19,032 bases of DNA from a virus, in IMG/VR virus record IMGVR_UViG_3300045988_041147, positions 1 through 19,032 of that record; one strand, 5' to 3'. Position numbers and translations under genes: made by a program. Position 1 is the first letter of the stretch. Every line of letters starts with the position of its first letter. The notes beneath the pieces were generated by a model. The model saw only the letters and a program-made list of their open reading frames with translations, was not told the DNA's origin and did not search any database. Of the stretch, positions 1-19,032 are shown one piece after another.

Positions 1-308
1 AGTTTGCATAACATCAAAAAGAACCATCATTGCAATTGGTGAGTGTCAACTTTTTTTATTTTGGGCTTGTCGTTTTTTTTATTGACACTGTGTCAATGGT
101 TGTATGTACAACAATTTCATATAGCCATTGGTTAACTGGGTTAACTCATGTTGTCTAATTATCTGTAAGTTACGGTAACGTAACCGTAACTTACCAACCG
201 GTAGGTAGGTGTGTTTTAGTGTTTTGCTTCATTTTGTTTTCGGGCGTGTCGTGTTTTTGTTTGTGTTATTATATAACTATCAACTTCAAGGGAAGGAAAA
301 ATAAAATG
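1..308. repeat. Left inverted terminal repeat (308 bp); presumed TP-primed replication origin plus early promoter, RBS and ATG
   Basis: I checked block by block that 1-308 is the exact reverse complement of 18725-19032. Identity stops right after the ATG at 306-308. Confidence 0.97.
262..272 (+). promoter_or_regulatory. Extended -10 promoter inside the left ITR (TGTGtTATTAT)
   Basis: TRTG/TGn motif followed by TATTAT (5/6 match to TATAAT), about 35 nt upstream of the ATG at 306. RBS AAGGGAAGG lies at 288-296. Confidence 0.5.
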
Positions 309-1975: not shown

Positions 1976-2486
1976 CCGTGGCGATGACCGTACGCCGGTT
2001 TATCGTATGCGCCGTTTTGATGACGGGATTATGGAATCATCCCGTATTGTCAAGGCTACGCGGGGGCATACTCGTGAATTGAATCTCAGACGCTATGACA
2101 TGGGCTATGGCGATTTTGAAACGTGCTGTAGGGCGGTCAACATGTTGTGTGAATTGTGGCGTGAAGTGCCCAGTGAGTGGTTTACGCAAGCGGTGATCAC
2201 GGTGTCTCAGATTTGCGGAAGCATGTGTATTGGTGATGGACTCGCCGCCGCCCTCTCTCGCACGTATGATGTGGAATATTTGGACGGTTCTATCAATCCG
2301 CCCAATCTTATTGCATGGTGTGCCGTGTGTGCAGTCAAGGGAGCTACGTCGTATGACTGTTGTACGATTTTCGATAATCCGCAAGCGCAAAACATGATTA
2401 TCGCCGTGTTTAAAAATTTTGACAGACTGGATACGACAAGGTATAATGACAGTGAATTGGAAAAAATCTTACTGCAAGGGAGGTAA
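1968..2486 (+). CDS. Hypothetical Cys-rich protein (172 aa)
   Basis: Internal ATG (MFNRGDD...) follows GGAAAGG. The track start at 1878 overlaps the 58-aa ORF in another frame. Many Cys residues; no recognised domain. Confidence 0.65.
   Translation: MFNRGDDRTPVYRMRRFDDGIMESSRIVKATRGHTRELNLRRYDMGYGDFETCCRAVNMLCELWREVPSEWFTQAVITVSQICGSMCIGDGLAAALSRTYDVEYLDGSINPPNLIAWCAVCAVKGATSYDCCTIFDNPQAQNMIIAVFKNFDRLDTTRYNDSELEKILLQGR
2419..2447 (+). promoter_or_regulatory. Perfect consensus sigma-A/sigma-70 promoter TTGACA-17 nt-TATAAT
   Basis: TTGACA at 2419-2424, a 17-nt spacer, and TATAAT at 2442-2447, with an A-rich tract just upstream. It sits in the 3' end of the 172-aa gene and faces the replication genes. 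Confidence 0.75.
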
Positions 2487-2812: not shown

Positions 2813-2869
2813 AGATTTTAGGCATAAGCCTGAAAATAAAAACAATAACCATAAGGGAAGGTAAATATC

Positions 2870-3307: not shown

Positions 3308-3316
3308 TGCTATAAT
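3308..3316 (+). promoter_or_regulatory. Extended -10 promoter (TGcTATAAT)
   Basis: Exact TGnTATAAT sits 4 nt after the putative-SSB gene stop, about 70 nt upstream of the terminal-protein gene. Confidence 0.65.
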
Positions 3317-3338
3317 CGTTAAGTAGCGTTCGTTCATT

Positions 3339-3363
3339 GAGAGCACCCAATTTGGGTGCTCTC
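3339..3363 (+). other. Perfect 11-bp hairpin (GAGAGCACCCA / TGGGTGCTCTC) with no U-tract
   Basis: Seen directly. It begins about 16 nt downstream of the predicted start of the 3308 promoter. It could be a 5' stabiliser, a processing site or a weak terminator. Confidence 0.6.
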
Positions 3364-3385
3364 GCCATCTTAAGGACTGTGCTAT

Positions 3386-4345
3386 ATGTCTCGGAAGAAG
3401 AAGCATGTCAAGGCACGTCAGGCCGCGCAAGCCCGTGCCGCCCGTAACATCAAACAGCTCGGCGCTTACTCCCACTCGAACCTGGCTAAAACTGCAGATC
3501 GCCAATTAGTCAACATTGCGAAAACGCTGGGTAAGGAGTGGGAGCGGCAGAAGAAACAGTCCATAGCGGAAGCGAAGGCAACCCCATATCATGCCACCGC
3601 CGTGGAAAAGCCGACGAAAAAAGACTACATGTTTGCCCAGCGTACACCCATCACGAACGCGCAAATTCAGGCGGAACCCGTAGCGAAACGGCGCAAACTC
3701 CTGCGACAACAGCAACGGAAAATCAATGCGGCACGACGCAAGATCAATGAATGGAACAAAATGCAGGCCATGCCCCCGCGTAGCGTGTATGACCAGCGCG
3801 TGGCAGAACTTGAAGGCACAACCGGTGAGGGGTTTGGACGCACTCAGATCATTCCGTCAAAACTCACCGACTTCCTGCAAATGACCAACGTGTTGAGTGA
3901 TGAAGCATTCGTGCGAAGTCAATTGGAGAGCGGGCACCGGAATGAATTGCGTGAGCAGATGCATGATGTGGCCGAAATCTTGGGACTGCGTACGGAACAA
4001 AAACGCAAGCCGACTAAAAAACGGAAGACAGAGACTCGACCCGACCTATACGACGATCATAATTGGCCGTCCTACATGAGTCGCGGACGCTATGAAGTGT
4101 TCGAGAAAATCTTGGCTACAACGCTCGGCTCGAAACGTTTAAAGCGGTTCCGTCAACTGTCAGCCGCGCAAAAACGTGCGTTTATCGAACAGACAGACGC
4201 CCCCCGTATCGTGTTCGACTGGACAGTGTATGACTCCGTCCGACACGGTTTCACCTCAGTATTTCGAGATAACAGTGAGGGCTATCAGCGCTCACGGCGG
4301 CAATTCGATAGGTGGTTGGCGGAAGCTGGCGCACTGGAAAAGTAG
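3386..4345 (+). CDS. Putative terminal protein (319 aa)
   Basis: It lies immediately upstream of the protein-primed polymerase, as in phi29 and Cp-1. It is very basic, with Lys/Arg-rich clusters at the N-terminus and in the centre. No convincing by-eye similarity to phi29 gp3. Confidence 0.55.
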   Translation: MSRKKKHVKARQAAQARAARNIKQLGAYSHSNLAKTADRQLVNIAKTLGKEWERQKKQSIAEAKATPYHATAVEKPTKKDYMFAQRTPITNAQIQAEPVAKRRKLLRQQQRKINAARRKINEWNKMQAMPPRSVYDQRVAELEGTTGEGFGRTQIIPSKLTDFLQMTNVLSDEAFVRSQLESGHRNELREQMHDVAEILGLRTEQKRKPTKKRKTETRPDLYDDHNWPSYMSRGRYEVFEKILATTLGSKRLKRFRQLSAAQKRAFIEQTDAPRIVFDWTVYDSVRHGFTSVFRDNSEGYQRSRRQFDRWLAEAGALEK

Positions 4346-4372
4346 CGGTCAGTGATCAAGGGACGTTATACT

Positions 4373-5824
4373 ATGACAGTGCAAGACAATAGGGTGGGAT
4401 TATGGTGTATGGATAGCGTCATACGATTTACGGATGGCACCGTGCTACGTGACATTATCGCCCCTAACCGGCTGTTGTCGTCCATTATGTCGGGTGGCAA
4501 ACTCACCATATATGTGACTAACCCAGACGTTTTAGACCCGTTTATCGCGCACGTCGTGCACTCCCTCCCCCACGATGAGCATAATGCTAACCTCAGCTGG
4601 GACGCCATTGTCTCCAAAAAAGGCAAGTTTTTCAGCTTCACGGTGCGTATAGATCGAGAAAATTCCGCACGCTTTTTCGACATATCGAATCTTTTACGAG
4701 AGAATTGCCGTCTCACCATGACCGACGCCCAGCTACTCAACATTTTACGTGAGTATGATGACCGTGGCTTATGTAAGATTACGGCGGGTGGGGCGAGTAT
4801 GGAAGCGTTCGCGTCCGGCGAGTGGAAATGGTATTACGACAAATTCCCACAATTGGAATCCGAAACTAAAAAGTCATTGCATGATGCCTATATCGGCGGA
4901 TTCATGACCGCCAAAGAAGGCATGTACGGCAAAGCTATCGATGTTGACTGCAATTCCATGTATCCGTCCATACTACGGGATGAATGGCTCCCATGGGGTG
5001 AACCCGAACCATATGAAGGCAAATACGAAGAAGATAGCGACATGCCCCTACATTGTGATGAACTCACATTTCGTGCGGAACTCAAACCAAACGGACACCC
5101 TTTTCTGCTCGACAATCGCAGTGTCTACGGATTGAATCGGCTCACTTCCACCCGTGGCTATATCACGCGCGTATTAACCGACATTGATCAACAACTACTG
5201 TATAACAATTATGAAGTGAGCGTCTACAAGCATGTGCGCGGCTGGAAATTCCGCCGCTCCAAAGGCTTTTTCCGCTCGTTCGTGGATGAATGGGGGGAGC
5301 TGAAACAGAAGGCGACGGGCGAGAAACGACAAATGGCGAAACTCATTATGAACGCCCTAGTTGGGAAAATGGCTAGTTTGCCCAAGGGTGCCGTCATGCT
5401 CCCTACCTCCAAAGATGGCATTACCCTCGACTGGGATGTGTCGCAACGTGAGGAATCGAACCTGAAAACCGATTATCTCCCAGTACCCGTATGGGTGAAT
5501 GCTTATGCACGTCGCAAACTTATGACCGTCTGCCACGCTAACGCCGACCGACTTTTGTACGCTAATACGGACGGTTGCATCCTATCAGGCTGGGAACCTG
5601 TGCGATCATGTGACATTCACCCGACTGAGCTTGGTAAGTGGAAGATCGCCGCCCGATATGAGAAATTGACCATACTCGGCATGAACCGTTATCAGGGGTG
5701 GCGTGATGATGGTGAGGTTGACGTATGTATGGCGGGCAACATGTTCTCGCAGCCCATCCCCTATGAGCAATTCCGGCATGGCGTGCAAGTCATGGATGAT
5801 TACGGAACAATGGTCATGCTATAA
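4373..5824 (+). CDS. Protein-primed family-B DNA polymerase, phi29 gp2-like (483 aa; alternative GTG start at 4352)
   Basis: It aligns with phi29 DNAP over AYxGGF, Dx2SLYP (DVDCNSMYP), Kx3NSxYG (KLIMNALVGK), motif C (YANTDG) and the LGxW/thumb region. Spacing fits the TPR1 and TPR2 insertions. AAGGGA lies 9 nt upstream of ATG 4373. Confidence 0.93.
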   Translation: MTVQDNRVGLWCMDSVIRFTDGTVLRDIIAPNRLLSSIMSGGKLTIYVTNPDVLDPFIAHVVHSLPHDEHNANLSWDAIVSKKGKFFSFTVRIDRENSARFFDISNLLRENCRLTMTDAQLLNILREYDDRGLCKITAGGASMEAFASGEWKWYYDKFPQLESETKKSLHDAYIGGFMTAKEGMYGKAIDVDCNSMYPSILRDEWLPWGEPEPYEGKYEEDSDMPLHCDELTFRAELKPNGHPFLLDNRSVYGLNRLTSTRGYITRVLTDIDQQLLYNNYEVSVYKHVRGWKFRRSKGFFRSFVDEWGELKQKATGEKRQMAKLIMNALVGKMASLPKGAVMLPTSKDGITLDWDVSQREESNLKTDYLPVPVWVNAYARRKLMTVCHANADRLLYANTDGCILSGWEPVRSCDIHPTELGKWKIAARYEKLTILGMNRYQGWRDDGEVDVCMAGNMFSQPIPYEQFRHGVQVMDDYGTMVML

Positions 5825-5825
5825 T
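5817..5825 (+). promoter_or_regulatory. Extended -10 promoter (TGcTATAAT) overlapping the polymerase stop codon
   Basis: Exact TGnTATAAT. The TAA stop (5822-5824) lies inside the hexamer. Confidence 0.6.
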
Positions 5826-5829
5826 GTCT

Positions 5830-6002
5830 ATTGTCTTCTGAGCGTCGATTTTCGGCTGGGGATAACACGGGTCGGACTGCCACGGCTGAGAATGCCGCCG
5901 ACCGTGAACATCACTATCATGGCGGTAGTGCTCTACGATTTTCACTTTGCGCTCACATAAGACAGTCTAGACCCCGCGTGATTGCGGGGTCATTTATTTT
6001 CT
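5830..6002 (+). ncRNA. Candidate structured non-coding RNA of about 170 nt (pRNA-like or regulatory leader)
   Basis: It is bounded by the 5817 promoter and the 5970-6002 terminator. A long-range helix pairs 5830-5837 and 5839-5844 with 5950-5955 and 5959-5966. Internal hairpins lie at 5866-5906 and 5912-5930. No credible ORF is present. Confidence 0.45.
5970..6002 (+). terminator. Intrinsic terminator (GACCCCGC-6 nt-GCGGGGTC followed by ATTTATTTTCT)
   Basis: An 8-bp GC-rich stem and T-rich tail, seen directly. It ends the early/replication transcription unit. Confidence 0.8.
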
Positions 6003-14942: not shown

Positions 14943-14975
14943 ATAGCCATACCACTATAATGGTGGTATGGCTAT
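14943..14975 (+). promoter_or_regulatory. Perfect 13-bp hairpin with a TATAATG loop, enclosing the tail-lysin start codon
   Basis: ATAGCCATACCAC (14943-14955) pairs with GTGGTATGGCTAT (14963-14975). ATG 14968-14970 pairs with CAT 14948-14950. Confidence 0.7.
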
Positions 14976-16182
14976 TACTTTCTCGCAGTGGATTGATCAG
15001 ACGAAAAACCGATACTGGGATATGGACGGCGCGTACGGGGCGCAATGCTGGGACTTATGGGCAAAATATTCCATGGATATGTACAGCATGAGTATTCAGG
15101 ACTGCATTACCCCCACCGGTTATGCGGGCGGACTGTACACCTCATATCCCGTGTCGGCTCGATGCGAACAAGTGTACGAACGTATCCCTGCCAATGGGTA
15201 CTCGCCTGTGGCGGGGGACGTGGCAATATGGGGATACGGCACATATACCCCATACACGCATGTTGCGATTGTGGCTAGCAATGATGGGGTGAAAAACAAC
15301 AGCATTTACATCATCACCCAGAATCCGGACGCAAGCGCCTTGAAATGGTTTCCCACCGCTGGACTGTTGGGCTACCTACACCCCCGTACCATGCCTAAGC
15401 CGGACGTTGACAATCCGACCGGCGACAACAATCAGGGACACCCCGACACAGCGCGGGGCGGCGCGTGGATACACTGGCAGGGTGACAATCTGTACTTGCA
15501 CGAAACAGACAATAGTGGCGCAAGGACTCGCATTTTCTACAAAACTACCGCCAATAATTTTTCGGAAAAAGCGTCGCAAGGCCAACCGTCCGACTCGCAA
15601 GGACAAGGCCACCCAAGCAGTTCGGCCAGTGCGGAAAACTCTTATGCCCTCTATGTGGTCGGCACGGTGGAAGCTGGCTTAAGATGGGATGCGGTGGAAG
15701 CGGCCAACTTGCAGGGTATTGGCATTGCCCAATGGAGTTTCGGACGCCGATTGCAGGTGCTCAATAAGATGAGAGAAGCTGACCCGACCGGCTATACGAC
15801 ATTCAAGACGGCAGCTCCACAGATCGCCGCATTAATGGAGAGCGGGGGAGATTTCACGAGAAACCTCACTCAATCGGAAGCTAGCGCATTCCAGGCATGG
15901 GCAGCACGCAGTGAATCCCATGAGGGGCAACGCAAACAGTTCGCGGAAGACTATGCCGGATATCCACAGGAATATGAGGATGATAAAATGCAGATACTGT
16001 GGGTCACTGCCTATCACCAGTCGCCCGCGAACGCGCTGAAAGTACCGAAGGCGTCGAACCTTGCACAGCTCAAGACGAACATTTTGAATACGTACCCGTT
16101 TCAGCCGTACACGAATCGATACAATCAGGCGTACTCGTTATTGAGTGTGTGGGATGGAAAATCGAATCCGCCCGCATTCTAA
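14968..16182 (+). CDS. Virion-associated peptidoglycan hydrolase: N-terminal CHAP plus C-terminal phi29 gp13-like lysozyme domain (404 aa)
   Basis: CHAP signature DMDGAYGAQCWDLW...HVAIV. The C-terminal GTVEAG...GIGIAQWS...TAYHQSPANA aligns by eye with the phi29 gp13 N-terminal domain (SES...GFGLVQWT...ASYERPANP). Its position is equivalent to gene 13. Confidence 0.8.
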   Translation: MAITFSQWIDQTKNRYWDMDGAYGAQCWDLWAKYSMDMYSMSIQDCITPTGYAGGLYTSYPVSARCEQVYERIPANGYSPVAGDVAIWGYGTYTPYTHVAIVASNDGVKNNSIYIITQNPDASALKWFPTAGLLGYLHPRTMPKPDVDNPTGDNNQGHPDTARGGAWIHWQGDNLYLHETDNSGARTRIFYKTTANNFSEKASQGQPSDSQGQGHPSSSASAENSYALYVVGTVEAGLRWDAVEAANLQGIGIAQWSFGRRLQVLNKMREADPTGYTTFKTAAPQIAALMESGGDFTRNLTQSEASAFQAWAARSESHEGQRKQFAEDYAGYPQEYEDDKMQILWVTAYHQSPANALKVPKASNLAQLKTNILNTYPFQPYTNRYNQAYSLLSVWDGKSNPPAF

Positions 16183-16185
16183 ACG

Positions 16186-16196
16186 TGTGATATAAT
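16186..16196 (+). promoter_or_regulatory. Extended -10 promoter (TGTGaTATAAT)
   Basis: Exact TRTGnTATAAT lies 4 nt after the tail-lysin stop. Confidence 0.65.
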
Positions 16197-16202
16197 AAGG
16201 AA

Positions 16203-16286
16203 TGTCGGCATGTGATGACTTCCCTTGAGCCGACCGTAACTAGTGGGAGCGTAACGGTGGTCATGACGTTACGCTCTCATTGTTTT
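16203..16286 (+). ncRNA. Structured leader / small RNA of about 85 nt ending in a terminator-like hairpin just before the ATPase RBS
   Basis: Hairpin 1 is 16204-16209 with 16229-16234 (19-nt loop). Hairpin 2 is 16245-16256 with 16267-16278 (12 bp, one G-U), followed by ATTGTTTT. AGGAGG at 16287-16292 comes next. Confidence 0.45.
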
Positions 16287-16299
16287 AGGAGGTGAGCGC

Positions 16300-17367
16300 A
16301 TGGCATTGCAAACATTGGCCGAAGATGACTATTATGACTTACATAATCTGCTCACCCGAAACGCTCCATGGAATTTCATTATCGGCGCACGCGGACTCGG
16401 CAAAACGTTCGCCGCCAAACGATACGGCATCAAGGAATACATCAAGCACGGCCATGAATTCATTTATCTCAGGCGCACAGACGTGGAACAGCACCGCAAG
16501 GAAACCTTCTTCAAAGACATTCAAGAGTTCTTTCCCTCATACGAGTTTCGTGTGAACGGCGAAAAAGGACAATTGCATAAGACATCATGGGACGAAAAAG
16601 ACTGGCGCACATGCTGCTATTTCGTCGCACTCTCCCAAGCGGGCGGACTAAAATCAGTGGCCTACCCTAAAGTACATTTGATTATTTTCGACGAAATCTT
16701 CCCCGACAACCTACGTTTTTTAAGCAATGAAGTAAACAGTTTCAGCGAGTTCTATAATACCGTTGACCGTTGGCAGGATAGAACAAAAGTGCTGTTTTTA
16801 TCCAACGCAGTGCAGAAAGCCAATCCCTATTTCGCGAAATACCGACTAGACATTGGAGCACAACAAACCAACCAACAACAATACAAACTCTACTGCGGTG
16901 GATTCGTCTGCTTAGAATTGGCAGACTATGGCGGATTCAGTGCGAAAGTCGCACAGTCCAAGTTCGGACGATTTCTTGAGCAGTATGACGGGGATTATGC
17001 CGACTATGCGATCAGAAACAAGTTCCGAGATGAGTCGGACACATTGCTAGCGCCCATCCCGAGCGACGGCGAACTCTCATACATTTTAGACACTAACGAC
17101 TATGCGCGATTCGGAATATGGGTTTCCGTATCCGAACGCGATGGGCATGTTTCACAATATGTTTCACGACGTATCCCCAAAGACAATACCAGACCCGTCT
17201 ACACGCTCGACCCCAACCATGTTGACGAAAAAACATGGTACGTCAAAAAGTCAGATGATATCATACGACGGCTCACCACCGGCTATCGACTCGGTAAAAT
17301 CCGTTTCGATGATTCGCAGGTCAAGGCCGATTTTGGTTTGATCATTGGAGAATTACTAGGCAAATAG
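16300..17367 (+). CDS. DNA encapsidation (packaging) ATPase, phi29 gp16-like (355 aa)
   Basis: NFIIGARGLGKT (Walker A), HLIIFDEI (Walker B), LSNAV...NPYF, VYTLDP and IRFDD blocks all align with phi29 gp16. Confidence 0.96.
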   Translation: MALQTLAEDDYYDLHNLLTRNAPWNFIIGARGLGKTFAAKRYGIKEYIKHGHEFIYLRRTDVEQHRKETFFKDIQEFFPSYEFRVNGEKGQLHKTSWDEKDWRTCCYFVALSQAGGLKSVAYPKVHLIIFDEIFPDNLRFLSNEVNSFSEFYNTVDRWQDRTKVLFLSNAVQKANPYFAKYRLDIGAQQTNQQQYKLYCGGFVCLELADYGGFSAKVAQSKFGRFLEQYDGDYADYAIRNKFRDESDTLLAPIPSDGELSYILDTNDYARFGIWVSVSERDGHVSQYVSRRIPKDNTRPVYTLDPNHVDEKTWYVKKSDDIIRRLTTGYRLGKIRFDDSQVKADFGLIIGELLGK

Positions 17368-18432: not shown

Positions 18433-18446
18433 TTAGCGGCATAAGA

Positions 18447-18477
18447 AAAGCCCCTAGGTTGATAGCCTAGGGGCTTT
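18447..18477. terminator. Bidirectional intrinsic terminator between convergent genes
   Basis: Perfect 12-bp stem AAAGCCCCTAGG / CCTAGGGGCTTT with a 7-nt loop. A-rich and T-rich flanks give a U-tract on both strands. Confidence 0.8.
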
Positions 18478-18481
18478 CCTA

Positions 18482-18727
18482 TTACCAAGTACGAGCGAAC
18501 GCTTCAATATCCTCTGCAGAAAACAGGTACAAATCATCATCTGTCTCATATGGTAGAAGGAACTGATAGGAATCATACTGAGCCACGCCATAATCGTCAA
18601 CAGCTTGGACACGGTCAATACTGGTCACGATGGCGACCTTGAAGCCCAGAAGCGTTATGGACGGGTCATTCCACAGCGTAGTGAGAAGTTCGTTCTTTTC
18701 ATTTGGGGTCATGTTTGAAATATCCAT
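18482..18727 (-). CDS. Small, highly acidic right-end early protein (81 aa)
   Basis: It starts at the ITR-borne ATG (complement of 18725-18727). By my count it has 15 Asp/Glu against 4 Lys/Arg. The track start at 18814 lies in the ITR and is an artefact. Confidence 0.7.
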   Translation of the reverse strand: MDISNMTPNEKNELLTTLWNDPSITLLGFKVAIVTSIDRVQAVDDYGVAQYDSYQFLLPYETDDDLYLFSAEDIEAFARTW

Positions 18728-19032
18728 TTTATTTTTCCTTCCCTTGAAGTTGATAGTTATATAATAACACAAACAAAAACACGACACGCCCGAAAACAAA
18801 ATGAAGCAAAACACTAAAACACACCTACCTACCGGTTGGTAAGTTACGGTTACGTTACCGTAACTTACAGATAATTAGACAACATGAGTTAACCCAGTTA
18901 ACCAATGGCTATATGAAATTGTTGTACATACAACCATTGACACAGTGTCAATAAAAAAAACGACAAGCCCAAAATAAAAAAAGTTGACACTCACCAATTG
19001 CAATGATGGTTCTTTTTGATGTTATGCAAACT
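18725..19032. repeat. Right inverted terminal repeat (308 bp)
   Basis: Exact reverse complement of 1-308. Confidence 0.97.
18761..18771 (-). promoter_or_regulatory. Extended -10 promoter inside the right ITR (mirror of 262-272)
   Basis: Same sequence as the left ITR promoter. It drives the acidic 81-aa gene. Confidence 0.5.

What the first reader, a model, noticed from the sequence alone, without database searches (positions are those of the whole stretch)
16186..16299. Second promoter / two-hairpin RNA / terminator cassette abutting the packaging ATPase RBS
An exact TGTGATATAAT (16186-16196) is followed from about +1 by two hairpins. The first is 16204-16209 with 16229-16234 (19-nt loop). 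The second is 16245-16256 with 16267-16278 (12 bp, 10-nt loop), and ATTGTTTT follows it. The ATPase AGGAGG starts at the very next nucleotide (16287). No other promoter lies between the terminator-like hairpin and the ATPase-holin-endolysin genes. Their expression therefore needs read-through, which is the architecture of an attenuator or riboswitch-like leader, or of an abundant small RNA with leaky read-through. Loop 1 contains AUGAC (16215-16219), which is complementary to GUCAU (16260-16264) in loop 2. That would allow an intramolecular kissing complex or an intermolecular pRNA-style contact. By my rough estimate such a 5-nt match has about a 1 in 10 chance of arising between loops of this size. 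Sitting immediately upstream of the gene whose product binds pRNA in phi29 makes this a second pRNA or regulator candidate.
Basis: partly seen in the sequence, partly recalled or inferred. Interest (0 to 1): 0.65.

Follow-up and report, generated by a model that had tools for sequence, protein, structure and literature searches.

The report
Phage antisense RNA against early genes
The promoter-plus-two-hairpin element in front of the packaging ATPase gene of this phi29-like Bifidobacterium phage is real and conserved, and its first loop is complementary to, and co-evolves with, the ribosome-binding sites of the phage's own DNA polymerase, SSB and terminal early genes, so it is most likely a regulatory antisense RNA and not a second prohead RNA.

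Summary
The window is a complete ~19 kb phi29-like podophage of human-gut Bifidobacterium (closest: phage BP1). The cassette is conserved in 121 distinct relatives. These keep an extended -10 box 4-11 nt (mostly 6-7) before hairpin 1, covarying stems (32 and 61 stem variants) and conserved loop sequences. The proposed AUGAC/GUCAU loop-loop contact is not conserved. No pRNA hallmark is met, and a different RNA (5832-5991) has the pRNA-like architecture.

Loop 1 (AUGACUUCCCUUGA, 16215-16228) is antisense to the Shine-Dalgarno regions of five early genes in the window. These are the two ITR-encoded terminal genes, gene 2489, SSB and DNA polymerase; no late gene is matched. Loop and targets change together across lineages. 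Examples are GAUAACUUCCCUUGA with UCAAGGGAAGUUAU (14 nt) and GCAACCUU with AAGGUUGC upstream of five early genes.

Best reading: a trans-acting antisense RNA, either a terminated sRNA or the ATPase mRNA leader, that masks early-gene ribosome-binding sites. Expression and effect are untested. Whether hairpin 2 terminates transcription is open, because its U-tract is not conserved.

The parts
16186..16196 (+). Extended -10 promoter element (TGTGATATAAT; core TGaTATAAT at 16188-16196). The transcription start is inferred at about 16203-16204.
   Evidence: sequence. (TGNTATAAT: 5 observed against 0.64 expected). (one TATAnT in 85/85 relatives; TG extension in 120/121 distinct copies; mostly 6-7 nt before hairpin 1). 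The start site itself was not measured.
16204..16234 (+). Hairpin 1: stem 16204-16209 with 16229-16234, and a 19-nt loop at 16210-16228.
   Evidence: There are 32 distinct stem variants among relatives that keep pairing, 20% of pairs being G-U on the + strand.
16215..16228 (+). Seed in loop 1 (AUGACUUCCCUUGA), antisense to early-gene ribosome-binding regions. Mean unpaired probability is 0.77.
16235..16244 (+). Variable single-stranded linker between the hairpins (8-25 nt in relatives).
16245..16278 (+). Hairpin 2: a 12-bp G+C-rich stem (16245-16256 with 16267-16278) and a 10-nt loop GUGGUCAUGA (16257-16266). The loop holds the near-invariant GUCAUG.
   Evidence: 61 stem variants; several positions split between G-C, A-U and U-A; loop GUGGUCAUGA in 59 and AGUCAUGG in 45 distinct copies.
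16279..16286 (+). U-rich tail AUUGUUUU. Together with hairpin 2 it is terminator-like in this genome.
   Evidence: It resembles the tail AUUUAUUUU of the clear terminator at 5970-5991. It is not conserved: U counts in the 9 nt after hairpin 2 range from 1 to 7.
16287..16302 (+). SD (AGGAGG) and start codon of the packaging ATPase gene (16300-17367).
   Evidence: 96.9% identical to the BP1 'DNA packaging protein'.
286..295 (+). Target 1: UCAAGGGAAG in the 5' UTR/SD of the left terminal gene (ATG 306). It lies inside the 308-nt ITR and gives 10 contiguous Watson-Crick pairs with 16219-16228.
   Evidence: -17.0 kcal/mol.
18738..18747 (-). Target 2: the same UCAAGGGAAG in the 5' UTR/SD of the right terminal gene (ATG 18727, - strand), in the other ITR copy.
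2475..2484 (+). Target 3: CAAGGGAGGU, the SD of the gene starting at TTG 2489, downstream of a perfect TTGACA-17-TATAAT promoter at 2419-2447.
   Evidence: -16.8 kcal/mol; 10 consecutive pairs in the printed duplex, by my reading 9 Watson-Crick and one G-U.
2853..2860 (+). Target 4: AAGGGAAG, the SD of the SSB gene (ATG 2870).
   Evidence: -14.9 kcal/mol.
4356..4369 (+). Target 5: UCAAGGGACGUUAU, the SD and spacer of the DNA polymerase gene (ATG 4373). 13 of 14 positions pair (one mismatch, one G-U).
   Evidence: -17.5 kcal/mol.

Best explanation
The cassette encodes a base-pairing regulatory RNA.

How it is made (inferred, not shown): it is transcribed from its own extended -10 promoter, starts at hairpin 1, and runs at least through hairpin 2. 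In this genome, hairpin 2 plus AUUGUUUU probably releases part of the transcripts as an ~84-nt sRNA. The rest read through and form the 5' leader of the ATPase-holin-endolysin mRNA.

What it does: the large apical loop of hairpin 1 displays a 10-14 nt seed (AUGACUUCCCUUGA). The seed is antisense to the Shine-Dalgarno and spacer region of the phage's early mRNAs. These are the two terminal genes driven from the inverted terminal repeats, the gene at 2489, SSB and DNA polymerase. Pairing would cover the ribosome-binding site and so lower translation (and probably stability) of replication and early proteins. This couples their shut-down, or a dosage-dependent damping, to transcription of the packaging/lysis unit.

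Shown here: the structure, its conservation, the complementarity, its restriction to early-gene start regions, and the co-variation of seed and targets across lineages.

Inferred: the transcription start, the 3' end, the sign of regulation (repression) and its timing.

Secondary, weaker inference: the invariant GUCAUG of loop 2 contacts the (C/U)AUGAC start-codon region of the polymerase mRNA. That would give a two-loop grip like that of P1 c4 RNA.
For: 1. Real structured RNA on the + strand.
- MFE z = -3.47.
- Compensatory changes appear already among 5 isolates.
- There are 121 distinct copies with 32 and 61 stem variants.
- There are 158 G-U pairs on the + strand.
- 1-2 nt indels in loop 1 and in the linker rule out coding.

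2. Promoter.
- The TG-extended -10 is kept in 120/121 copies, mostly 6-7 nt before hairpin 1.
- The motif is enriched in the window.

3. Targets in the window.
- Exact complements of at least 7 nt to loop 1 lie just upstream of the start codons at 306, 2489, 2870, 4373 and 18727(-). No late-gene start region is hit.
- In one search each of these five sites is followed within 6-10 nt by a start codon. Only two other sense-strand sites of at least 7 nt were found (2335 and 6991), both inside genes.
- Duplex energies are -14.9 to -17.5 kcal/mol. Other start regions give -4 to -10, apart from -13.8 at 1593 and -14.3 at 16300, whose test stretch overlaps the RNA's own hairpin 2.
- Shuffled loops reach 5 hits with P = 0.002 (whole loop) or 0.0008 (core).

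4. Co-variation.
- Loop GAUAACUUCCCUUGA matches the polymerase TIR UCAAGGGAAGUUAU, 14/14.
- L069: AUAGAUAACUUCC matches GGAAGUUAUCUAU (13).
- L078: CAUCUUCCCUUG matches CAAGGGAAGAUG (12).
- L084: CUUUCCCCCUUG matches CAAGGGGGAAAG (12).
- Type B: CCUUUCCCUUGAA matches the terminal-gene UTR UUCAAGGGAAAGG (13).
- L261: a changed loop tail AAGUUG matches CAACUU in the same UTR.
- Type C: GCAACCUUA matches the polymerase TIR UAAGGUUGC (9), and its terminal-gene SD UAAGGUUG pairs with loop CAACCUUA (8).
- Type D: GCAACCUU matches AAGGUUG(C) directly upstream of five early genes including SSB and polymerase. Four of these register in the shuffle test, P = 0.004.
- Cross-controls (type A loop on a type D genome and the reverse) hit no annotated gene start.
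- Permuting loops among 63 genomes never reaches the cognate mean (8.54 against 7.58 +/- 0.18; 0/5000).

5. The seed is exposed: unpaired probability 0.77.

6. Read on the opposite strand, the loop-1 region is a near copy of the polymerase start region including an ATG (my comparison of the sequences). This is what an antisense RNA derived from its target would look like.
Against: - No expression data.
- The seed is pyrimidine-rich and therefore has a generic affinity for any SD. In type B genomes a 7-nt match also falls on the capsid SD.
- In a whole-genome duplex scan the ITR site ranks only about 8th. Several better-scoring sites lie on the opposite strand or inside genes.
- Many type B genomes have poor complementarity to the polymerase TIR (4-8 nt). 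Type D has only 5 nt to its terminal-gene UTR. The target set is therefore not constant.
- Many of the sequences are closely related, so permutation P values overstate independence. Only about 5-6 independent co-variation events are seen.
- The U-tract after hairpin 2 is absent in types C and D, so a discrete terminated sRNA cannot be the universal form.
- The conserved loop 2 is not explained with confidence.
Confidence: 0.68

Rival explanations
1. Cis-acting leader or attenuator. Hairpin 2 plus the U-tract is a conditional terminator, or an RNA switch, that sets how much transcription enters the ATPase-holin-endolysin genes. The conserved loops bind a phage or host factor. This is not exclusive with the antisense role.
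For: - Hairpin 2 is followed by AUUGUUUU and then immediately by the SD, with no promoter in between.
- The tail resembles that of the clear terminator at 5970-5991.
- The ATPase genes of all cassette-bearing relatives depend on transcripts that cross hairpin 2.
Against: - No mutually exclusive alternative pairing was evident by eye. The MFE and the centroid are the same two hairpins. A systematic search was not done.
- The U-tract is weak in type B and absent in types C and D.
- No Rfam leader or riboswitch matches, even at E <= 10.
- It does not explain why loop 1 co-varies with early-gene ribosome-binding sites.
- Sister phages do without it: the ATPase gene abuts the upstream gene in BadAargau2, BadAztec1, Av-1 and L295.
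Confidence: 0.25
2. A second prohead RNA (pRNA), or a pRNA-like packaging RNA, that multimerises through loop-loop contacts and docks the ATPase.
For: - It sits next to the gp16-type ATPase gene.
- It has two hairpins with a 5-nt loop-loop complementarity in this genome.
- Loop 2 contains the self-complementary UCAUGA.
Against: - The AUGAC/GUCAU match is at chance level and is broken without compensation in most relatives.
- There is no 5'/3' helix and no three-way junction.
- There is no Rfam pRNA hit.
- It is absent from related phages with the same ATPase family.
- A separate, universally conserved RNA at 5832-5991 has the pRNA-like layout, with 20 of 37 pairs showing compensatory changes.
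- There is no significant sequence similarity between the two cassettes.
Confidence: 0.03
3. Passive punctuation. Hairpin 2 simply terminates the upstream structural operon. The promoter restarts transcription, and hairpin 1 is a 5' stabiliser. The loop complementarity to SDs is a by-product of pyrimidine-rich composition.
For: - Other promoters in this genome are also followed by a hairpin (3308-3365).
- A 5' stem-loop starting at +1 is a known mRNA stabiliser (general knowledge).
- The loop is anti-SD-like.
Against: - The promoter lies upstream of the hairpin, not downstream of it. That is an odd design for pure punctuation.
- The loops are more conserved than the stems.
- Complementarity extends well beyond the SD core (up to 14 nt), is limited to early genes, and switches to a different motif together with the targets in types C and D.
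- Composition-preserving shuffles rarely reproduce it.
Confidence: 0.08
4. Cis translational control. Loop 1 pairs with the SD of the ATPase gene on the same RNA and masks it.
For: ACUUCC can pair with GGAGGU of the ATPase SD (6 bp with one G-U). This comes from inspecting the sequence.
Against: - By inspection of the sequences, only 4-6 nt in any lineage, and 4-5 nt in types C and D. That is much less than for early genes (8-14 nt).
- A very stable hairpin 2 lies in between.
- There is no co-variation with the ATPase SD.
Confidence: 0.05

Closest known systems
c4 antisense RNA of phages P1 and P7 (immI region)
   Same: - A phage-encoded, trans-acting small RNA.
- Its recognition sequences are displayed in hairpin loops and pair with the ribosome-binding region of a phage mRNA.
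- Loop and target sequences differ together between related phages.
- It can be cut out of a longer transcript.
(Basis: my own knowledge; the review PMC12197685, describes the loop-displayed antisense sequences.)
   Different: - No sequence or structural homology was detected.
- c4 controls one operon (icd-ant) for lysogenic immunity in temperate phages. The RNA here is in a lytic phi29-like phage of an actinobacterium.
- Here at least five separate early genes are addressed, including the replication proteins.
- Processing, if any, is unknown.
RegA translational repressor of phage T4
   Same: The proposed role is the same: one late-acting factor that masks the translation-initiation regions of many early mRNAs. 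(Basis: my own knowledge; the review PMC3014915 is listed.)
   Different: RegA is a protein. Here the repressor would be an RNA acting by base pairing.
Gram-positive and actinobacterial sRNAs with C-rich or UCCC loops (RsaE/RoxS, 6C RNA)
   Same: Pyrimidine/C-rich motifs exposed in hairpin loops pair with G-rich SD regions of several mRNAs, and a 3' hairpin follows. (Basis: my own knowledge.)
   Different: - Those are chromosomal sRNAs regulating host metabolism.
- No Rfam match to 6C or to any other family was found.
- The seed here extends well beyond the SD core and is phage-specific.
Plasmid copy-number antisense RNAs (for example CopA of R1)
   Same: A constitutively made antisense RNA, whose dose follows template copy number, blocks translation of the replication protein through loop contacts. 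(Basis: my own knowledge.)
   Different: Those are cis-encoded and fully complementary. Here the RNA is encoded 12 kb away from the polymerase gene and has 8-14 nt seeds.
phi29 prohead RNA (pRNA, Rfam RF00044)
   Same: A small structured RNA of a phi29-like phage with its own promoter, and it lies next to the packaging ATPase gene.
   Different: - None of the structural hallmarks is present.
- It is not universal among relatives.
- The pRNA-like RNA of this phage is a different locus (5832-5991).

Membership tests
phi29-type prohead RNA (pRNA) | Match to the Rfam pRNA covariance model. | tested here: not met
   No match in the window at the gathering score. None of the 5 matches at E <= 10 is pRNA or lies in 16186-16299.
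phi29-type prohead RNA (pRNA) | Long helix formed by the 5' and 3' ends, closing a three-way junction. | tested here: not met
   The predicted fold is two independent hairpins. The RNA starts at hairpin 1, and no conserved 5'/3' pairing is seen.
phi29-type prohead RNA (pRNA) | Two loops with intermolecular complementarity that is kept (co-varies) among relatives. | tested here: not met
   AUGAC in loop 1 varies at 3 of 5 positions while GUCAU in loop 2 is invariant.
phi29-type prohead RNA (pRNA) | Bound to proheads and required for packaging. | not testable with these tools
   This needs biochemistry.
Trans-acting base-pairing regulatory RNA (c4-like antisense sRNA) | Independent transcript with a defined promoter and 5' end. 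| tested here: inconclusive
   The conserved extended -10 lies a few nt (mostly 6-7) upstream of hairpin 1. No transcript data were available.
Trans-acting base-pairing regulatory RNA (c4-like antisense sRNA) | Accessible seed complementary to the translation-initiation regions of its targets. | tested here: met
   The seed has unpaired probability 0.77. There are 8-14 nt duplexes with five early-gene SD regions, at -14.9 to -17.5 kcal/mol. Shuffle P = 0.002 to 0.0008.
Trans-acting base-pairing regulatory RNA (c4-like antisense sRNA) | Seed and target change together in evolution. | tested here: met
   Lineage-specific matches of 8-14 nt, orthogonal between types A/B/E and types C/D.
Trans-acting base-pairing regulatory RNA (c4-like antisense sRNA) | 3' end formed by an intrinsic terminator or by processing. 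| tested here: inconclusive
   Hairpin plus U-tract is good in the window but not conserved. Processing is not testable here.
Trans-acting base-pairing regulatory RNA (c4-like antisense sRNA) | Measurable effect on target translation or stability. | not testable with these tools
   This needs reporter assays or toeprinting.
Riboswitch or transcription attenuator leader | Terminator with a competing, conserved antiterminator structure or a ligand-binding core. | tested here: inconclusive
   No competing helix was evident. MFE and centroid agree. There are no Rfam hits. The U-tract is missing in types C and D. A systematic search for alternative folds was not done.

The most novel reading that the evidence does not exclude
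The RNA is a two-loop 'address code'. Loop 1 grips the SD and loop 2 grips the start codon of the DNA polymerase mRNA. This switches the phage from replication to packaging.

Because it acts in trans and its seed/target pairs have diversified into mutually orthogonal types (CUUCCCUU with AAGGGAAG against GCAACCUU with AAGGUUGC), it would also work between phages. An established infection would silence the early genes of co-infecting relatives that carry the same code. That would be an RNA-based exclusion or incompatibility system in strictly lytic gut phages, analogous to P1/P7 heteroimmunity, and escape from it would drive the seed switches.
Probability: 0.15. Interest if true: 0.85.

Novelty: new variant of a known kind. 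Interest (0 to 1): 0.72.

Why it matters
- phi29-like phages are a textbook system for protein-primed replication and RNA-dependent packaging. Their temporal control is thought of as purely transcriptional (p4, p6). A review of the group records pRNA as their only special RNA, and only in Bacillus phages (PMC11476376).
- An antisense RNA addressing the ribosome-binding sites of the polymerase, SSB and terminal early genes would add a post-transcriptional layer of control. It would also be an RNA counterpart of T4 RegA.
- The prediction is immediately testable in phages that can be cultured (BP1, BD811P1-3).
- It defines a new RNA family, with about 120 distinct members in human-gut viromes, that has a built-in co-variation record with its targets.
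- The same analysis points to the likely pRNA of these actinobacterial phages (5832-5991). That would extend pRNA beyond Bacillus.

Tried and rejected
- **Rfam**, at the gathering score and at E <= 10: nothing at the locus.
- **Paralogy between cassette 1 and cassette 2**: the best local alignment is 13 nt, and 64 of 1000 shuffles score as well. Rejected.
- **Small ORFs**: there is a 27-codon ORF at 16212-16295 and a short uORF from the loop-2 AUG. They are not conserved. ATG becomes ATA in many relatives, and 1-2 nt indels shift the frame. Rejected.
- **Loop 1 pairing with the 5' arm of hairpin 2 or with the ATPase SD**: only 4-6 nt by inspection and no co-variation. Set aside.
- **RNAalifold on a 50-sequence MAFFT alignment**: it gave no structure because the lineages were misaligned. 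I replaced it with a structure-aware count in Python. That count can only record pairs that form, so it shows variety of stems, not the absence of breaks.
- **Two further IMG/VR scans with other ATPase queries**: they returned the same ~80 contigs.
- **Whole-genome duplex scan**: the ITR site is not the single best site, so energy alone is not decisive.
- **Contigs L387-L389**: found through a UTR motif, but they turned out to be unrelated.
- **Literature searches**: I found no description of this RNA.
Full report
**What the window is**

The 19,032-bp window is a complete linear phi29-like genome with a perfect 308-bp inverted terminal repeat.
- Its closest isolate is Bifidobacterium phage BP1: 83% DNA identity over the region, and the packaging ATPase is 96.9% identical.
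- Next come BD811P1-3 of B. dentium.
- Apart from one gene at the right end, the annotated genes are on the + strand. In order they are: small early genes, SSB (2870), a probable terminal protein (3386), DNA polymerase (4373), scaffold-like and capsid genes, tail, portal, tail spike, a CHAP-type lysin (14968-16182), the ATPase (16300-17367), holin and endolysin.

**Check of the observation**

- The -10 box is a perfect extended -10 (TGaTATAAT, 16188-16196).
- Hairpin 2 contains one G-U pair.
- The stretch folds into exactly the two hairpins, with z = -3.47.
- TGNTATAAT is eight-fold enriched in the genome. Its four + strand copies all sit at gene boundaries, at 3308, 5817, 6010 and 16188. It is therefore plausibly the phage's standard promoter type.

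**Conservation**

About 80 IMG/VR contigs, 56 metagenome contigs and four isolates carry a closely related ATPase.
- 129 loci gave a parseable cassette, and these are 121 distinct sequences.
- 120 of the 121 keep the TG-extended -10. Hairpin 1 begins 4-11 nt, mostly 6-7 nt, after it.
- There are 32 different hairpin-1 stems and 61 different hairpin-2 stems. Several stem positions are split among G-C, A-U and U-A.
- G-U pairs are frequent on the + strand: 158 in the distinct stems. This points to a + strand RNA rather than a DNA site.
- Loop 1 and the linker tolerate 1-2 nt indels, and the ATG of the 27-codon ORF is often ATA. The region is therefore noncoding.
- The loops are more conserved than the stems. 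Loop 1 keeps AC(C)UU(U)CCC..UUG, and loop 2 keeps GUCAUG.
- The cassette is clade-specific. In the honeybee Bifidobacterium phages BadAargau2 and BadAztec1, in Actinomyces phage Av-1, and in a metagenome relative with 68% ATPase identity (L295), the ATPase gene abuts the upstream gene.

The AUGAC/GUCAU contact has a chance probability of about 0.09. In relatives, loop 1 reads GAUAAC, GAUGCU, GAUUAC, AACAAC or GACAUC while loop 2 is unchanged. It is not a conserved interaction.

Nothing else pRNA-like is present.
- There is no terminal helix, no junction and no Rfam hit.
- In contrast, the RNA between the polymerase and scaffold genes has a long 5'/3' helix closing a junction with two hairpins. 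It has its own promoter at 5817-5825, a body at about 5832-5968, and a terminator at 5970-5991.
- That RNA is present in every lineage I looked at. It shows compensatory changes in 20 of 37 pairs among only eight sequences.
- If this phage has a pRNA, that is it. The two cassettes share no significant similarity.

**What loop 1 matches**

Searching the window for the complement of the invariant part of loop 1 gave a perfect 10-mer, UCAAGGGAAG, at 286-295 (+) and at 18738-18747 (-).
- Both lie in the ITR, which ends exactly at the ATG of the first gene at each end.
- The 10-mer is the SD region of those two genes.
- Three more exact matches of at least 7 nt lie directly upstream of start codons: gene 2489, SSB and DNA polymerase.
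- In the polymerase case, 13 of 14 positions pair.
- No late-gene start region is matched.
- Duplex energies are -14.9 to -17.5 kcal/mol for these five. Other start regions give -4 to -10, apart from -13.8 at 1593 and -14.3 at 16300, whose test stretch overlaps the RNA's own hairpin 2.
- Composition-preserving shuffles of the loop reach five start regions with P = 0.002, or 0.0008 for the core.

**Co-variation**

The decisive evidence is comparative. I paired each cassette with the polymerase start region of the same contig, for 63 genomes.

| Lineage or locus | Loop 1 | Target | Match |
|---|---|---|---|
| L015, L036, L058 | GAUAACUUCCCUUGA | polymerase TIR UCAAGGGAAGUUAU | 14/14 |
| L069 | AUAGAUAACUUCC | polymerase TIR GGAAGUUAUCUAU | 13 |
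| L078 | CAUCUUCCCUUG | polymerase TIR CAAGGGAAGAUG | 12 |
| L084 | CUUUCCCCCUUG | polymerase TIR CAAGGGGGAAAG | 12 |
| Type B | CCUUUCCCUUGAA | terminal-gene UTR UUCAAGGGAAAGG | 13 |
| Type C | GCAACCUUA | polymerase TIR UAAGGUUGC | 9 |
| Type D | GCAACCUU | polymerase TIR AAGGUUGC | 8 |

- Type B loops also match the SSB SD GGAAAGGU(UA).
- One variant (L261) lost the UUGAA tail and gained AAGUUG, which pairs with CAACUU a few nucleotides upstream in the same UTR.
- Types C and D have a completely different loop, GCAACCUU. In type C both the polymerase start region (UAAGGUUGC) and the terminal-gene SD (UAAGGUUG) match it.
- For type D I recovered the whole genome. AAGGUUG(C) lies directly upstream of five early genes, including the SSB and polymerase orthologues, and upstream of no late-gene start. 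Four of these register in the shuffle test, P = 0.004.
- The type A loop finds no annotated gene start in the type D genome, and the type D loop finds none in the window.
- Permuting loops among genomes never reaches the observed mean complementarity.
- Because many genomes are close relatives, I count about five or six independent events rather than relying on that P value.

**Mechanism**

The simplest reading is an antisense regulator. Its exposed loop (unpaired probability 0.77) covers the SD and spacer of early mRNAs and blocks ribosome binding.

This works like P1/P7 c4 RNA, with loop-displayed antisense sequences and co-varying targets (review PMC12197685). In outcome it resembles T4 RegA.

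Its position links it physically to the packaging and lysis genes. It either precedes them as a separately terminated sRNA or forms the 5' leader of their mRNA. This fits a replication-to-packaging switch, or a dose-dependent brake on replication proteins. Timing and sign of regulation are inferences.

**Loop 2**

Its GUCAUG could pair with the (C/U)AUGAC start of the polymerase gene.
- In type B, GUCAUGG matches CCAUGAC (7 nt).
- In BD811-like genomes, UCAUGAC gives 7 nt.
- In type A it is 6 with a wobble.
- CAUG is a palindrome, and the ATPase start region fits almost as well. I therefore treat this as a lead only.

**Terminator question**

In the window, hairpin 2 plus AUUGUUUU resembles the genome's clear terminator at 5970-5991.
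- U-richness varies widely among relatives and is lost in types C and D.
- The conserved function therefore cannot depend on intrinsic termination. The attenuator idea remains possible for this genome but is not supported comparatively.

**Caveats**

- There are no transcript data.
- The seed is pyrimidine-rich and has some affinity for any SD, with a 7-nt match to the capsid SD in type B.
- The ITR site is not the top hit in an unrestricted duplex scan.
- The target repertoire differs between lineages.

**Verdict**

The pRNA or kissing reading is not supported, and the attenuator reading is untested.

The best explanation is a new family of phage antisense regulatory RNA directed at early-gene ribosome-binding sites. 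I give it a confidence of about 0.7 for functional base pairing, and less for the details. I found no description of it in Rfam or in the searchable literature.

Noticed in passing
window 5817-5995: The first promoter/RNA/terminator cassette looks like the phage's true pRNA. It has TGCTATAAT at 5817-5825, an RNA body at about 5832-5968, and a terminator at 5970-5991. The fold is a long 5'/3' helix closing a junction with two hairpins. It is conserved in types A, B, C, D, E and the BD811-like phages, and 20 of 37 pairs show compensatory changes among 8 sequences. An internal loop UGCCAC and the second hairpin's loop GUGGC are complementary, like the R and L loops of phi29 pRNA.
   Followed up: partly
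window 1-308 and 18725-19032: The perfect 308-bp ITR ends exactly at the ATG of the first gene at each end. Both terminal genes therefore share an identical promoter (TGTTATTAT, about 264-272), 5' UTR and SD but encode different proteins. The same arrangement is seen in the type D genome (L384/L381).
   Followed up: partly
window 4352-4409: The DNA polymerase most likely starts at ATG 4373, giving 483 aa. An ORF of 480-484 aa with a conserved SD is present in every lineage examined. The start equivalent to 4409, which is annotated in BP1, gives 471 aa.
   Followed up: partly
window 16204-16234, opposite strand: Read on the - strand, the loop-1 region (UCAAGGGAAGUCAUCACAUG) is a near copy of the polymerase start region (UCAAGGGAAGUUAUACUAUG in relatives), including an ATG at the same spacing. 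This suggests that the seed arose by inverted duplication of its target.
   Followed up: no
window 16257-16266: The hairpin-2 loop GUGGUCAUGA holds the palindrome UCAUGA (GUCAUGAC with the first stem base). GUCAUG is nearly invariant in types A, B, E and BD811-like but is replaced in types C, D and F. Its partner is unknown. It could be the polymerase or ATPase start codon, self-dimerisation, or a protein.
   Followed up: partly
window 3308-3365: A third extended -10 (TGCTATAAT, 3308-3316) is followed by a perfect 10-bp hairpin, GAGAGCACCC-AAUUU-GGGUGCUCUC (3341-3365), just before the probable terminal-protein gene (ATG 3386).
   Followed up: no
window 2419-2447: This is the only perfect TTGACA-17-TATAAT promoter in the genome. 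It lies inside the end of ORF 1878-2486 and drives the gene at 2489, whose SD is one of the loop-1 targets.
   Followed up: no
window 18442-18480: A strong hairpin, AAAGCCCCUAGG...CCUAGGGGCUUU, lies between the convergent endolysin gene and the right terminal gene. It looks like a bidirectional terminator. It gave a weak, sub-threshold Rfam match (ncr1015, E = 4.9), and similar hairpins are seen at the ends of several relatives.
   Followed up: no
L001 / L165 (GenBank PQ571273.1, roughly positions 1-300): The deposited BP1 genome appears to begin with a fragment of the terminal gene. This is followed by what I recognise from memory as Illumina adapter sequence (…ACCGAGATCTACAC…ACACTCTTTCCCTACACGACGCTCTTCCGATCT), and only then by the real genome end. 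It is probably an assembly artefact in the record.
   Followed up: no
L279 (ERZ808275 contig), about 3380-3500: A further cassette type ('F') has the GCAACCUUG loop on a longer composite hairpin. Its second hairpin is a different, palindromic G+C-rich one (ACCCCGCGCGGGGU) without GUCAUG. The left half of this genome was not available to test its targets.
   Followed up: no
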